Source: a virus. From it: a stretch of 31,464 nt of DNA. Each line of letters opens with the position of its first letter. Positions within the stretch are counted from its first letter, which is position 1. The DNA lies in the IMG/VR virus record IMGVR_UViG_3300028591_003415, positions 1 to 31,464 of that record; one strand, given 5' to 3'. The notes below the pieces were generated by a model. The model was not told where the DNA came from and did no database searches. It worked only from the letters and a program-made list of their open reading frames with translations. The translations under genes and the position numbers were made by a program. Positions 3,732 through 6,077 of this stretch are shown here, one piece after another.

Positions 3732-6077
3732 TTACTCAATAGGATATTGGAGAGCTTTTAATAAATTTAATTCCTCTTGAGATATAATTTTTAAACTTTC
3801 TTCATCTGGAAGCCATAATTTAAATCTAATATTTTCTTTATGCTTCCAATAGTATAAATTCCAAAAGTAAGCATTAGCAAGGGCACGGGCTTTATGCATA
3901 ATACAAATATAAGTGGCACGATGATTAAAATTTCCACCACTGTCTTGGTAATTATATGCTTGACACCAAGCGCATCCTTCTGCTATGGGACAATTTATAC
4001 ATTCTTCTGTCGATTGTGTAATACGATTTACAGCTTTTAAGGCATTAATACAATTACGGCACTTGGCATCTGTCATTATTCCAGTATTTACATTCCCAAT
4101 TATAATAGGTTCAACTTGATTGCCAAGAGAAGATTCCATGTATCTAATACATGGATATATATCACCTTTCCAATCTACTGAAATCATCGAACCATTTCCA
4201 CCACAGTTTGAAGATACAATGCCACCAGCAATATAACTATGATTTGTATCTACAGTAATATTATAAACTTCTTGAGGCTTAGTCGGAATAATCTAAAGAT
4301 GTGAAGTCCATAATTTATTATCTTCTTGAGTATACTTTACATATCTGGCTCGTTCAGGCTCTTCATAAAAATAAATTTCATATCTATCATGAATATTTAC
4401 TTCTCGCCCTAAAATAGTAGATTTTCCGCCTCGTTCATTTTTATAACAAGTTGGGGTATATCCAATTGTGCGAAGAAGAAGCATAATATCTTCAGCTAAT
4501 TCATAACTTACAGTATTTATACGATATTGTCCATTAGAGTGAATAGACCCATCGGCTGCCATATAACCATCAATAAAAGCTCCAATACTTTCTTTATCCC
4601 AATTGAATACTTCTTCTGGAACTCGTTTTCTAGTGGCTAAATGGCCACAATGTTTTAAAATACTATGAAGTTTATTATTCGCTTCGTGTTGAATAATATT
4701 ATATTGGTCTACTGTTTTATTTTTATTTATTGTATAAACAATACCCGCTCTATTAAAGTATTGAGATAACTCATTTGTTTCTTCAAAAGCGCAACAAATA
4801 CAATGTCCTTCATTGTCTCTAATATCCCATCCATCTCCAACATATCTACCGACAAGATAGGCAAAATCATATGGGACAGAAATATTTCCCTCTGGCAATT
4901 TAAATAATTCAATATAATCCTTTGGCCCTAAATCTTTTACTTCATATTTGCCATAAGGTTTCCAATGCTTTTTGCCTTTATTACCTAAATAATCAAAAGG
5001 CTTTGCAAAAACTTTATGATTATTAGTGCATATTAAATCAAAAGTTCCGCTATTATGAAGAATTACACAATTGTCTGCAAAATGAGACATAGTATTAATA
5101 ATAGGGTGAATTGTTCCATCTGCAGTATACACTAAATCTCCAATCTATAAATCTTCAATTGGCCTATACCCATTTGGGGTTAAAATAGGAGTACCCGCTG
5201 CCCAGCACCAATTTTGGCTATCTGTTCTATCCTTTGGCTTAAAATAATTTTTTTCATACATAGCAATATAAACTTTATCTTCTAAATCATTCTCTAAAAG
5301 ATAATCACTTAATTGTTTTAATTGATTATATAAAATAGTAGCATGTTCTTCAGTCCAACCTTTTTCAAATACACAATTAAGATTTATTTCTGTATACCCT
5401 TGATCAATTAATCCTTTTACAGCTTCAAAAGTATATTCTATATTAGCTGGGGCTAATGTCATTTTACTGCCCATATTACCACCTAGTACATCTACATAAT
5501 GACGTACTGCTGCGATTGCTTTATCATAACTACCTGAACCGTCTGGGAAGATACGGCAAGCATCATGTAATTGTTTATTACCATCAATAGAAATATTAAA
5601 AGATAAATGGTCCATCCATTTTTTTATAAAATCCTATACTTTTGGCTCAAAGTATAATGTACCATTTGAACTAATAGATATACGCCAATTATATTGCCAT
5701 GGATGATTAGTTTCAATCATTCGCTTAATAAAATAGTCCATAATCTAATTTATCAATTCTACTTCAAGAAAAGGCTCTCCTCCGATAAATTCAATAATAA
5801 TAGCATCACAGGCCCATGTATCTAAATACTATTGAGTATTTTTATCATTTTCAAGAAGCATATCAATAAATTTTTGCGCTACCTCAAAAGGCATTTTATG
5901 AGTACTTTTATTTATCTGATAACAATAAGTACATCTAAGATTACAAGCATCAGTAACCTAAAAAGTTACATTTGCTGTCTAAATTTTATTGGTCTCTTTT
6001 TGTCTATCATAAGGGAATGGATAAAACCGAGATATCATATCTTGATATGTCTCGGTTCTCTTACGGTTATTATTCAT
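3732..6077 (-). CDS. Radical SAM / SPASM-domain enzyme (anSME or peptide-maturase type) interrupted by an intein. About 447 aa of host protein after the intein is removed. 7 in-frame TAGs.
   Basis: N-terminal part has VTDACNLRCTYCY, the canonical CX3CX2C radical-SAM cluster motif. The C-extein begins CGGNGSMISVDWKGDIYPC, the SPASM signature, and carries further Cys clusters (CRNC...CINCPIAEGCAWC). Track ORFs 5145..5615, 4293..5132 and 3732..4187 share one frame and join through TAG at 5145-5147 and 4293-4295. The N-terminal 154 codons (6077..5616) contain 5 more TAGs and no TAA or TGA. The ATG (rc 6075-6077) overlaps the upstream stop. Confidence 0.8.
4206..5207 (-). mobile_element. Intein of 334 aa with an embedded LAGLIDADG homing endonuclease. 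It is inserted immediately before the first Cys of the SPASM domain.
   Basis: N-terminal splice region CWAAGTPILTPNGYRPIEDLQIGDLVYTADG. Block B has TNNH. Two LAGLIDADG motifs are present: AYLVGRYVGDGW and GAFIDGYMAADGS. C-terminal block is VYNITVDTNHSYIAGGIVSSN, followed by the +1 Cys of CGGNGS. The penultimate residue is Ser rather than the usual His. Confidence 0.75.

What the first reader, a model, noticed from the sequence alone, without database searches (positions are those of the whole stretch)
4206..5207. LAGLIDADG intein inserted at the first SPASM cysteine of the radical-SAM enzyme, with a non-canonical C-terminal Ser-Asn.
A 334-codon insertion begins at Cys (CWAAGTPIL...). It has a block-B TNNH, two LAGLIDADG motifs (AYLVGRYVGDGW and GAFIDGYMAADGS), and a C-terminal VYNITVDTNHSYIAGGIVSSN, followed by the +1 Cys of the SPASM CGGNGS motif. 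The penultimate residue is Ser instead of the near-universal His, which implies an atypical Asn-cyclisation chemistry. The intein sits in a metal-cluster ligand position. Splicing would then be required to form the auxiliary Fe-S cluster, which is a possible redox- or condition-dependent switch on the maturase. The intein ORF itself contains 2 TAGs.
Basis: partly seen in the sequence, partly recalled or inferred. Interest (0 to 1): 0.6.

Follow-up and report, generated by a model that had tools for sequence, protein, structure and literature searches.

The report
Ordinary intein in phage radical-SAM maturase
This is a real self-splicing, mobile protein insert (an intein) in a phage enzyme gene, placed just before a cysteine that should hold an iron-sulfur cluster; the enzyme family is a newly seen home for inteins, but the "odd" Ser-Asn ending is a well-known variant.

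Summary
Window 4206..5207, on the minus strand, is a 334-codon in-frame insertion in a 781-codon gene (6077..3732). The gene has 7 in-frame TAGs that read as Gln. With the insertion removed, the 447-aa product matches NCBIfam TIGR04115 end to end (radical SAM/SPASM maturase, CXXX-repeat target family; 472 bits, cutoff 350). All 112 intein-less homologues read N-W|C-G-G-N-G at the junction. The insert is a class 1 intein with a LAGLIDADG homing endonuclease. It has Cys1, block B TNNH, two LAGLIDADG motifs with their Asp residues, a block F His, a C-terminal Asn and a +1 Cys. Pfam, NCBIfam and an AF2 model (top PDB match PI-SceI, 3.9e-18) agree. dN/dS is 0.12-0.17. The +1 Cys aligns with CteB C344, an auxiliary-cluster-I ligand. 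The claim of atypical chemistry is not supported. Ser/Ala-Asn occurs in the DnaE inteins, is reported for phage inteins, and 22% of this intein's relatives lack the His. A redox switch is untested, and the N-extein cysteine used by the Pab MoaA redox trap is absent here. Additional finding: this maturase family carries inteins at four Fe-S-ligand cysteines, up to four per gene.

The parts
3732..6077 (-). Precursor gene. It has 781 codons plus TAA and encodes a 90.4 kDa precursor, with 7 in-frame TAG codons read as Gln.
   Evidence: The DNA is 100% identical to the gene in ENA contig L003.
5208..6077 (-). N-extein, residues 1-290. It is the radical SAM core with CX3CX2C at C45/C49/C52 and ends ...DSQNW.
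   Evidence: Pfam Radical_SAM and Fer4_12. TIGR04115 matches across the splice junction.
4206..5207 (-). Class 1 intein with a LAGLIDADG homing endonuclease, 334 aa and 38.3 kDa.
5205..5207 (-). Cys1 codon (TGC), the intein N-terminal nucleophile. It is preceded by Trp at position -1 (5208..5210).
   Evidence: Read directly. Conserved as W/Y|CW in all copies that include the N-junction.
5016..5027 (-). Block B T61-N-N-H64 (TxxH), preceded by the conserved Cys60.
4827..4862 (-). First LAGLIDADG motif, AYLVGRYVGDGW, with the catalytic-position Asp125.
   Evidence: Conserved as GRY[VI]GDGW in all four copies that cover this motif.
4545..4583 (-). Second LAGLIDADG motif, GAFIDGYMAADGS, with the catalytic-position Asp219.
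   Evidence: Pfam LAGLIDADG_3 covers residues 208-270.
4206..4268 (-). Blocks F and G, VYNITVDTNHSYIAGGIVSSN. F:4 is Asn316 (not Asp), the block F His is His323, the penultimate residue is Ser333 (4209..4211) and the terminal residue is Asn334 (4206..4208).
   Evidence: (TIGR01443).
4203..4205 (-). The +1 Cys codon (TGT). It is C625 in the precursor and C291 in the spliced protein. It is the first Cys of the SPASM CX12GX4C motif and aligns with the CteB auxiliary-cluster-I ligand C344.
3732..4205 (-). C-extein, residues 625-781 plus the stop codon. This is the SPASM domain, with cysteines at spliced positions 291, 309, 339, 342, 359, 362, 368, 371 and 391.
   Evidence: Pfam SPASM matches model positions 1-67/67.
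5145..5147 (-). In-frame TAG at intein residue 21. Other copies have Q or K here.
4293..4295 (-). In-frame TAG at intein residue 305.
2865..3701 (-). Downstream gene for a 278-aa Cys-rich CXXX-repeat protein with 4 in-frame TAGs. It is the presumed substrate of the maturase.
   Evidence: The synteny is kept in L001 and L003.

Best explanation
This is a bona fide class 1 intein that carries its own LAGLIDADG homing endonuclease. It behaves as a selfish mobile element and has been resident for a long time in the gene for a phage-encoded radical SAM/SPASM maturase of CXXX-repeat proteins.

Inferred mechanism. The gene is translated as a 90-kDa precursor. That requires TAG-to-Gln decoding, as in other TAG-recoded gut phages. 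The HINT domain then carries out standard protein splicing:
1. An N-S acyl shift at Cys1, helped by block B Thr61 and His64.
2. Trans-thioesterification by the +1 Cys.
3. Cyclisation of Asn334, probably helped by block F His323 in place of the missing penultimate His.
4. An S-N shift that completes the peptide bond.

The products are a 52-kDa maturase reading ...QNW-CGGNG... and a free 38-kDa endonuclease. Only after splicing is the former +1 Cys joined to the radical SAM core in its normal context, where it can act as an auxiliary-cluster-I ligand. The endonuclease is expected to cut intein-less alleles around AATTGG|TGTGG during co-infection and so copy the intein in (homing).

The position at a cluster-ligand Cys is what intein biology predicts. 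An intein needs a +1 Cys, Ser or Thr. It also persists best in invariant sequence, where imprecise loss would be lethal to the host gene.
For: - Boundaries: intein-less homologues up to 90% identical read QNW|CGGNG. The junction residues N, W, C, G, G and N are invariant in 112 of 112.
- Host protein: the spliced protein matches TIGR04115 over profile positions 2-359 of 359, at 472 bits against a cutoff of 350.
- Intein signatures: Pfam Hint_2 and LAGLIDADG_3 and NCBIfam intein_Cterm all score above their cutoffs.
- Fold: the AF2 model has pLDDT 77.7 and pTM 0.76. Its best PDB matches are all intein homing endonucleases: PI-SceI (3.9e-18), the TliVMA intein (TMq 0.67), PI-PfuI and PI-PkoII.
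- Family: at least 10 copies lie at the same site, both full-length (332-335 aa) and mini (133-135 aa). All copies that reach the C-junction end S[SA]N|CGG, and all keep block B TxxH, the block F His and, in full-length copies, both LAGLIDADG Asp residues.
- Purifying selection: pN of 0.17-0.20 against pS of 0.60-0.67. dN/dS is 0.12-0.17 for the intein overall, 0.08-0.23 for the splicing domain and 0.15-0.21 for the endonuclease domain, like the exteins at 0.10-0.17.
- Sporadic distribution: 4 of the 120 best homologues carry the intein. A syntenic intein-less allele exists (L001). A close relative, P0277, carries a second intein as well.
- Long residence: GC, GC3 and TAG usage are the same in the intein and the exteins, and the TAGs fall at different intein positions in different copies.
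- Genetic code: all 5 extein TAGs align to Gln in 85-112 of 112 homologues.
- Ser-Asn is compatible with efficient splicing.
Against: - No experiment: splicing and DNA cleavage are inferred from conservation only.
- dS is saturated (above 1), so the dN/dS ratios are rough.
- Block F position 4 is Asn in every copy rather than the commonest Asp, in addition to the missing penultimate His, so two assisting residues differ from the consensus.
- Intein divergence tracks extein divergence (73-74% against 73-75% identity). This points to long vertical co-inheritance rather than recent homing. That is compatible with a domesticated or regulatory role as well as with a well-adapted parasite.
Confidence: 0.85

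Rival explanations
1. Conditional-splicing switch. The intein has been co-opted so that splicing, and hence assembly of auxiliary cluster I and maturase activity, is gated by redox state, oxygen or metal/Fe-S availability. One possible route is a Cys1 to Cys+1 (or Cys1 to Cys60) disulfide. Another is metal binding at Cys+1.
For: - Precedent: in the Pab MoaA radical-SAM enzyme, an intein disulfide blocks splicing under oxidising conditions (PMC10663303).
- Disulfides between catalytic cysteines and inhibition by divalent cations are known for inteins (PMC4031507).
- Here both nucleophiles are Cys, and a conserved Cys60 abuts block B.
- The intein looks vertically retained and is under selection.
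- Inteins recur at four Fe-S-ligand cysteines in this family.
- Kelley 2016 argues that variation at the penultimate residue tunes splicing rate in phages.
Against: - The defining Pab MoaA feature, a nearby N-extein Cys, is absent. There is no Cys in residues 236-290.
- About 96% of the closest homologues, including syntenic phages, have no intein, so the host does not need one.
- The same site is occupied by a different intein lineage with the canonical His-Asn ending.
- Relatives of this intein also sit at catalytic cysteines of unrelated enzymes: a C5 DNA methylase, a CHAP endolysin and a GT2 glycosyltransferase. The pattern therefore follows from the +1 Cys requirement combined with site conservation.
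- Mills et al. 2014 state that no physiologically relevant conditional splicing had been shown.
Confidence: 0.1
2. A decaying, splicing-dead intein, so that the maturase gene is effectively a pseudogene in this phage.
For: Two assisting residues are non-consensus (F:4 Asn and G:6 Ser). The gene carries 7 TAGs. Standard-code annotation breaks the gene into fragments; the JGI call P0276 is a 279-aa piece.
Against: All nucleophiles and the block B and block F His residues are intact and conserved across copies that have diverged to saturation at synonymous sites, with dN/dS of 0.08-0.2. The same S/A-N and F:4 Asn combination is fixed in every copy and is therefore selected. The TAGs align to conserved Gln, and the intein-less alleles carry TAGs as well.
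Confidence: 0.04
3. Not an intein at all. It could be a non-splicing HINT or bacterial intein-like (BIL) domain, or an inserted free-standing endonuclease ORF.
For: There are weak sub-threshold Pfam hits to PT-HINT, and BIL domains appear far down the fold-search list.
Against: The C-terminal Asn followed by a +1 Cys, the in-frame insertion at an invariant host motif, and the exact restoration of a full-length TIGR04115 match all argue for an intein. The top structural matches are all true inteins.
Confidence: 0.01

Closest known systems
PI-SceI (yeast VMA1 intein), the Tli/Pho VMA inteins, PI-PfuI and PI-PkoII: the classical bifunctional LAGLIDADG inteins
   Same: Same architecture: a HINT splicing domain interrupted by a two-motif LAGLIDADG endonuclease, with Cys1, block B TxxH, a C-terminal Asn and a +1 Cys. 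These are the best fold matches (E 3.9e-18 to 9e-11, TMq 0.58-0.67) and the best PDB sequence matches.
   Different: Only 12-18% identical. Their hosts are V-ATPase, ribonucleotide reductase and DNA polymerase in yeast and archaea. They have a penultimate His. This intein is shorter, at 334 aa against 360-540.
Npu and Ssp DnaE inteins
   Same: Class 1 inteins with Cys1 and Cys+1 that end Ser-Asn (Npu ...IASN|CFN; PDB 4kl5 and 4lx3) or, from memory, Ala-Asn (Ssp). The Ssp DnaE crystal-structure paper (Sun et al. [quoted passage not shown]
   Different: They are naturally split, have no endonuclease, and sit in cyanobacterial DnaE. F:4 is Asp there (VYDIGV), whereas it is Asn here.
Mycobacteriophage class 1 inteins that lack the penultimate His (Kelley et al. 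2016, PMC5050341)
   Same: Phage-borne and inserted in active centres. The penultimate His is replaced by Gly, Lys or Ser. The block F His is proposed to compensate, and the native non-His version splices better than the His mutant.
   Different: Their hosts are actinobacteriophage proteins such as terminase and RDF. They have no radical SAM host and their genomes are not TAG-recoded.
Pyrococcus abyssi MoaA intein
   Same: An intein inside an oxygen-labile radical SAM Fe-S enzyme. It is the published model for redox-gated splicing.
   Different: The gate there is a disulfide between Cys1 and a nearby N-extein Cys, and no such Cys exists here. The host is archaeal, the enzyme has a Twitch domain and the insertion site is different.
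Inteins of cultured phages: Lactococcus phage 949/AM4/AM5 NrdD, C5 DNA methyltransferases of Lactobacillus, Mannheimia and E. coli phages, and Aeromonas phage PS1 ThyA
   Same: These are the closest intein relatives in annotated phage genomes, at 27-29% identity over the whole intein. The best PHROG hit is an intein-bearing NrdD family (1.8e-25).
   Different: The host proteins differ. No annotated phage record carries an intein in a radical SAM maturase. The best extein matches, at 38-39% identity, are intein-less and unannotated.
CteB and PapB thioether-forming radical SAM/SPASM maturases (the extein)
   Same: CteB (5WGG) is the best solved relative of the spliced protein (E 6e-26 with a profile). 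PapB is the second-best NCBIfam hit (4e-55). The RS, AC1 and AC2 cysteines are conserved.
   Different: The family is TIGR04115, with no fused N-terminal RRE domain. Its substrate is a 278-aa CX3C-repeat protein rather than a short peptide. The chemistry has not been characterised.

Membership tests
Class 1 intein (HINT superfamily) | Cys or Ser nucleophile as the first intein residue | tested here: met
   Cys291 (5205..5207), after Trp at position -1. It is W/Y|CW in every copy that includes the N-junction.
Class 1 intein (HINT superfamily) | Block B TxxH | tested here: met
   T61-N-N-H64. It is T-x-N/D-H in all 7 aligned copies that cover the region.
Class 1 intein (HINT superfamily) | C-terminal Asn followed by a +1 Cys, Ser or Thr | tested here: met
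   Asn334|Cys625 (4206..4208 and 4203..4205). NCBIfam TIGR01443 intein_Cterm scores 23.7 bits against a cutoff of 15.6.
Class 1 intein (HINT superfamily) | Penultimate His (G:6). This is an assisting residue that is common but not defining. | tested here: not met
   Ser333 here, and Ser or Ala in all copies. It is not required: Npu DnaE ends ASN, Kelley 2016 reports replacements in phage inteins, and 22% of 156 related junctions lack His.
Class 1 intein (HINT superfamily) | Block F assisting residues: F:13 His and F:4 Asp. The review describes these as less conserved. | tested here: inconclusive
   The F:13 His (His323) is present and conserved. F:4 is Asn in all copies (VYN[IL]TV) instead of the commonest Asp.
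Class 1 intein (HINT superfamily) | HINT fold | tested here: met
   Pfam Hint_2 scores 39.1 bits against a cutoff of 28.4. The AF2 model matches intein structures: PI-SceI, the VMA inteins, Prp8, DnaB and gp41-1.
Class 1 intein (HINT superfamily) | An in-frame insertion that is absent from orthologues and whose removal restores a conserved host motif | tested here: met
   112 intein-less homologues have an invariant NW|CGGN junction. The spliced sequence gives a full-length TIGR04115 match.
Class 1 intein (HINT superfamily) | Demonstrated protein splicing | not testable with these tools
   This needs expression of the precursor followed by SDS-PAGE or mass spectrometry.
LAGLIDADG homing endonuclease (intein-borne, two-motif) | Two LAGLIDADG helices, each ending in an acidic residue, within an alpha-beta-beta-alpha-beta-beta-alpha fold | tested here: met
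   The motifs are VGRYVGD125G and GYMAAD219G. Pfam LAGLIDADG_3 gives 1.5e-12. The fold also matches I-DmoI.
LAGLIDADG homing endonuclease (intein-borne, two-motif) | Site-specific cleavage of the empty allele, and homing | not testable with these tools
   The support is indirect only: a sporadic distribution (4 of 120 close homologues), mini-intein derivatives (P0044, P0123) and dN/dS of 0.15-0.21 in the endonuclease domain.
Class 3 intein | No Cys1 nucleophile, together with the Trp(B:12)-Cys(F:4)-Thr(G:5) triplet | tested here: not met
   Cys1 is present, F:4 is Asn and G:5 is Ser. The criteria are from PMC5050341.
Redox-trap intein of the Pab MoaA type | An N-extein Cys close to the junction that can form a disulfide with Cys1 | tested here: not met
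   There is no Cys in N-extein residues 236-290. The nearest is C235. The criterion is from PMC10663303.
Radical SAM/SPASM peptide maturase, CXXX-repeat target family (TIGR04115), the host protein | HMM score above the curated cutoff over the full model | tested here: met
   E=1.6e-141, 471.9 bits against a cutoff of 350, covering profile positions 2-359 of 359. This holds only after removing residues 291-624.
Radical SAM/SPASM peptide maturase, CXXX-repeat target family (TIGR04115), the host protein | The CX3CX2C radical SAM motif and the SPASM cysteines | tested here: met
   CX3CX2C is C45/C49/C52. The SPASM pattern is C291-X12-G-X4-C309 ... C359-X2-C362-X5-C368-X2-C371 ... C391, and all are invariant in the 12 intein-less homologues aligned. 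C291 and C309 align to the CteB AC1 ligands C344 and C362.
Radical SAM/SPASM peptide maturase, CXXX-repeat target family (TIGR04115), the host protein | An adjacent CXXX-repeat substrate gene | tested here: met
   ORF 2865..3701 (-) encodes long runs of C-x3-C and is syntenic in L001 and L003. No curated HMM hit was found.

The most novel reading that the evidence does not exclude
In these phage maturases, inteins at Fe-S-ligand cysteines are more than parasites. Splicing and cluster insertion compete for the same cysteine thiols. The inteins therefore act as post-translational gates that delay or condition maturase activity on redox state or Fe-S supply late in infection. There are four such ligand sites, up to four inteins per gene, and related inteins inside the Cys-rich substrate. 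The fixed Ser/Ala-Asn ending together with F:4 Asn would be a rate-tuning adaptation of this lineage.
Probability: 0.08. Interest if true: 0.7.

Novelty: new member of a known kind. Interest (0 to 1): 0.38.

Why it matters
As an intein it is textbook, so it does not change how protein splicing is understood, and the Ser-Asn ending needs no new chemistry. Four points are still worth recording.

1. Radical SAM/SPASM RiPP-type maturases are, as far as the held literature and the annotated phage records show, an undescribed host for inteins. The paper searches found nothing relevant. No annotated phage record carries such an intein.
2. The family is an intein hotspot. Every insertion site found lies immediately before a cysteine that ligates an Fe-S cluster, shown or inferred. 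The sites are the 2nd and 3rd Cys of CX3CX2C, the first SPASM Cys, and the last Cys of CX2CX5CX2C. This gives a natural test set for whether splicing and metallocluster assembly interact.
3. Standard-code gene calling shatters this gene. The source annotation holds only a 279-aa fragment. Inteins and maturases in TAG-recoded phages are therefore systematically missed.
4. The compact 133-135-aa natural mini-inteins with Cys1/Cys+1 and a Ser-Asn ending could be useful splicing tools if they turn out to be fast.

Tried and rejected
- Megablast of the first 25 kb of the window against GenBank phages found only a 71-nt match to a Cellulophaga phage, so there is no close sequenced relative.
- ARAGORN found no tRNA in the window, so no suppressor tRNA is present here.
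- The IMG/VR scan with the intein protein found nothing. The intein alignment was too diverged to derive search patterns. A hand-made degenerate DNA pattern for YNITVDTNHSYIAGG then found one viral contig, L006.
- NCBIfam on five neighbouring ORFs, including the CXXX-repeat protein and the conserved 99-aa upstream ORF, gave no hits. PHROGs returned only unknown-function families.
- Literature. The Callahan 2011 MoaA paper is not held, so a 2023 review was used instead. No held paper contains the phrase "CXXX repeat". The Campylobacter phage paper and the Asgard virus paper mention inteins and radical SAM or MoaA separately, not together. A search for "intein" plus "SPASM" returned only irrelevant papers.
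- A class 3 intein, a BIL domain and a pseudogene were considered and rejected (see the membership tests and the rivals).
- An alternative boundary shifted by one residue (NWC|W...SSNC|G) gives the same product but is chemically impossible for an intein, so the Cys1 ... Asn|Cys+1 boundaries were kept.
- HMMER's alignment of the CX2CX5CX2C block to CteB is off-register. It pairs C368 with CteB C413. The assignment of C371 to AC1 therefore rests on motif spacing and is marked as inference.
- The second structure-prediction job (for the spliced extein) was not used, because the tool returns no coordinates and could not have tested cluster geometry.
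Full report
OBSERVATION. The feature lies on the minus strand. Translating 6083..3720 in the right frame gives one open frame from ATG (6077) to TAA (3732..3734). It has 781 codons and is interrupted only by seven TAGs, with no in-frame TGA or TAA. Residues 291-624 map exactly to window 4206..5207, which is 334 codons.
- CWAAGTPIL at the start.
- TNNH at intein residues 61-64.
- AYLVGRYVGDGW at 116-127.
- GAFIDGYMAADGS at 209-221.
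- VYNITVDTNHSYIAGGIVSSN at 314-334, followed by CGGNGS.

Two of the seven TAGs lie in the intein, at 5145..5147 and 4293..4295.

THE HOST GENE AND THE GENETIC CODE. With residues 291-624 removed, the 447-aa product matches NCBIfam TIGR04115, "radical SAM peptide maturase, CXXX-repeat target family". The match has E=1.6e-141 and 471.9 bits (cutoff 350) and covers model positions 2-359 of 359, so it runs straight across the splice junction. The Pfam SPASM model starts at its position 1 on the +1 Cys. A protein search returned 3721 homologues. Most of the best 120 are 433-452 aa and carry no insert, at up to 90% identity. In 112 such proteins the junction N-W|C-G-G-N is invariant. The five extein TAG positions are Gln in 94, 112, 103, 85 and 112 of the 112, so TAG is read as Gln. 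A syntenic intein-less allele (L001) has ten in-frame TAGs of its own. The window is phage-like: PHROG hits include RNA ligase, PhoH, RuvC, and HNH and GIY-YIG homing endonucleases, and the spliced maturase matches phage family phrog_1802. No suppressor tRNA lies in the window. Immediately downstream, 2865..3701 (-) encodes a 278-aa protein made largely of C-x3-C repeats, the expected substrate.

WHAT THE INSERT IS. Pfam finds Hint_2 (39.1 bits, cutoff 28.4) at the N-terminus and LAGLIDADG_3 (E=1.5e-12). NCBIfam finds the intein C-terminal splicing region above its cutoff. PDB sequence matches are PI-PkoII and an archaeal VMA intein (annotated as V-ATPase/V-type ATP synthase alpha chain). An AlphaFold2 model built on nine family members has pLDDT 77.7 and pTM 0.76. 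Its best PDB matches are exclusively intein homing endonucleases: PI-SceI at 3.9e-18, the TliVMA intein at TMq 0.67, then PI-PfuI and PI-PkoII. Mini-inteins and I-DmoI match the two separate domains. The intein is class 1. Cys1 is present and the class 3 Trp-Cys-Thr triplet is absent (using the criteria).

THE INTEIN FAMILY, SELECTION AND MOBILITY. The same intein sits at the same site in other alleles: P0001 (identical in DNA to the window gene), P0073, P0094, P0277, the IMG/VR contig L006, the fragments P0121, P0122, P0124 and P0125, and as 133-135-aa mini-inteins in P0044 and P0123. These exteins belong to two diverged subfamilies, CGGNGSMISVDWKGD and CGGTGxMLACDPDG. All copies that reach the C-junction end S[SA]N|CGG. 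All keep TxxH, the block F His and, in full-length copies, both LAGLIDADG Asp residues. Nei-Gojobori estimates between three full-length copies give dN/dS of 0.12-0.17 for the intein overall, 0.08-0.23 for the splicing parts and 0.15-0.21 for the endonuclease. The exteins give 0.10-0.17. dS is saturated, so these ratios are rough, but pN is far below pS throughout. Intein and extein identities track each other at 73-75%. GC, GC3 and TAG usage are the same in the intein and the extein. TAGs occur at different intein positions in different copies, and not at all in L006. The element is therefore functional, old and fully adapted to its hosts. It is also sporadic: 4 of the 120 closest homologues carry it, and both loss of the endonuclease and gain of further inteins are seen among relatives.

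THE SER-ASN ENDING.
- The PDB sequences of the Npu DnaE intein end ...NGFIASN|CFN (4kl5 and 4lx3). That intein splices with a half-life of 1 min or less (PMC4031507).
- Kelley et al. [quoted passage not shown] They also found that restoring His slowed splicing, and that an upstream block F His can assume its role.
- A scan of 1.84 billion representative proteins found 5920 relatives of this intein. Across 156 C-terminal junctions in the best 150, the penultimate residue is H 121, S 17, A 8, K 6 and others 4.

Ser is thus the commonest alternative to His, and this intein retains the block F His (His323).

THE CLUSTER-LIGAND POSITION. CteB (5WGG) is the closest solved relative of the extein, at E=9.8e-20 with the single sequence and 6.3e-26 with a profile. 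The alignment puts the +1 Cys on chain residue C347 and the next SPASM Cys on C365. Chain numbering is +3 relative to the paper's numbering: the radical SAM cysteines are 107/111/114 in the chain and 104/108/111 in the paper. These two residues are therefore CteB C344 and C362, listed as auxiliary-cluster-1 ligands in PMC10177961. In anSME the equivalent Aux I ligands are C261 and C276 (PMC6231123).

This placement is not special to this copy. In the representative set, site a (this one) is occupied in 15 clusters. Their C-termini split 7 with S[SA]N, 7 with a different lineage ending VHN, and 1 with VVN. In P0138, P0143 and P0149 the junction before the CGG motif reads SQ|CGG or KQ|CGG, which by eye looks like a C-terminal Gln. 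Three further sites exist.
- Site b lies before the last Cys of CX2CX5CX2C, which by motif spacing is the CteB C413 AC1 ligand. This assignment is an inference, because HMMER's register differs. Ten clusters carry an intein here.
- One site lies before the third Cys of CX3CX2C.
- One site lies before the second Cys of CX3CX2C.

P0149 carries four inteins. P0277, a close relative of the window gene, carries this intein plus one in the CX3CX2C motif. Related inteins also interrupt CXXX-repeat proteins themselves: P0153 read directly, and P0148 and P0166 inferred from the Cys-rich sequence after their junctions. Other hosts are a C5 DNA methylase (by the reported motif, at its catalytic Cys), a protein with CHAP and GH25 domains, and a GT2 glycosyltransferase. 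The simplest reading is the general rule for inteins. They need a +1 Cys, Ser or Thr, and they persist in invariant functional sequence.

MECHANISM (shown and inferred). Shown by sequence and comparison are the boundaries, the catalytic residue set, the fold, purifying selection, the sporadic distribution, TAG read as Gln, and the homology of the +1 Cys to an AC1 ligand. The rest is inferred:
- The four-step class 1 splicing pathway, with His323 substituting for the penultimate His.
- Release of a 52.2-kDa maturase and a 38.3-kDa endonuclease (masses).
- Cluster I assembling properly only after ligation.
- Homing into empty alleles at AATTGG|TGTGG.

RIVALS. A redox or metal-gated switch has a published precedent in the Pab MoaA radical-SAM intein and cannot be excluded. 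Its defining N-extein Cys is missing, however. Most alleles lack any intein, and a canonical His-Asn intein lineage uses the same site. I give it about 0.1. A dead intein or pseudogene is contradicted by conservation and dN/dS (0.04). A non-intein HINT or BIL domain is excluded by the alignment to empty alleles (0.01).

NOVELTY. The kind is fully known. The host family appears to be new for inteins. Searches of the held literature for intein with radical SAM or SPASM gave nothing relevant apart from MoaA. Inteins in stop-codon-recoded crAss-like phages have been noted in general terms. No annotated phage genome has this arrangement. The source annotation of this very contig holds only a 279-aa fragment of the intein, because TAG was read as a stop. 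Verdict: a new member of a known kind, of modest interest, which is raised somewhat by the family-wide pattern of inteins at Fe-S-ligand cysteines.

Noticed in passing
Not in the window. Proteins P0126-P0154 (representative search) and P0277.: The CXXX-repeat radical SAM maturase family is an intein hotspot. Inteins sit before the 2nd and 3rd Cys of CX3CX2C, before the first SPASM Cys and before the last Cys of CX2CX5CX2C. All of these are Fe-S ligand positions, shown or inferred. One gene, P0149 (1402 aa), carries up to 4 inteins. P0277, a close relative of the window gene, has a second full-length intein in the CX3CX2C motif, a site that is empty in the window.
   Followed up: partly
Not in the window. 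P0153, P0148 and P0166.: Related LAGLIDADG inteins interrupt Cys-rich CXXX-repeat proteins, the presumed maturase substrates. An example is P0153: ...CDMACGA|CFKAGT...VLVHN|CSSLCNTGC. Only P0153 was read in full; P0148 and P0166 are inferred from the Cys-rich sequence after their junctions.
   Followed up: no
window 2865..3701 (-): A 278-aa ORF with 4 in-frame TAGs. It has a roughly 118-aa non-Cys N-terminal part followed by about 160 aa of near-continuous C-x3-C repeats. It is very large for a RiPP precursor and looks more like a cross-linked structural protein. It has no curated family hit.
   Followed up: partly
window 6070..6369 (-): A 99-aa ORF that overlaps the maturase start codon by 8 nt. 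It is conserved in the same position (97-100 aa) in L001, L003, L004 and L005. The maturase has no fused RRE domain, so this could be a discrete partner or recognition protein. It has no family hit.
   Followed up: no
whole window, for example 17039..18055 (+), 14966..15730 (+), 30088..31386 (+): TAG-to-Gln recoding is uneven. Some ORFs carry many in-frame TAGs: the HNH endonuclease has 14, PhoH has 8 and the maturase has 7. Many long ORFs have none, for example 11449..13896, 15711..16985 and 27816..29207. This fits the early/late split described for recoded phages.
   Followed up: no
window 14021..14608 (+), 14966..15730 (+), 17039..18055 (+): Three free-standing homing-endonuclease genes (HNH_3, GIY-YIG and HNH) lie within 4 kb, in addition to the intein. 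The genome is rich in selfish elements.
   Followed up: no
window 22554..23705 (+): A diverged adenylosuccinate-synthetase homologue. Its best hit is the PHROG family annotated as PurZ-type (phrog_1211, 1e-30), and it falls far below the PurA cutoffs in NCBIfam. If it is a true PurZ, the phage DNA may contain 2-aminoadenine, which the homing endonucleases would have to tolerate.
   Followed up: partly
window 11449..13896 (+) and 27816..29207 (+): An 815-aa protein with major-vault-protein shoulder and repeat domains, and a 463-aa SPFH/flotillin-like protein. Both are unusual in a phage and neither has in-frame TAGs.
   Followed up: no
window 4293..5132 (-): The public (JGI/IMG) annotation of this 31,464-bp contig holds only a 279-aa GTG-started fragment of the intein (P0276), because TAG was treated as a stop. 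The maturase and the intein are therefore not annotated at source.
   Followed up: yes
window 9837..9907: This is the only megablast match of the first 25 kb to any GenBank phage: 71 nt at 86% identity to Cellulophaga phage phi18:3, inside a gene annotated as a GTP-binding domain protein. ORF 9593..9970 (+) covers it.
   Followed up: no
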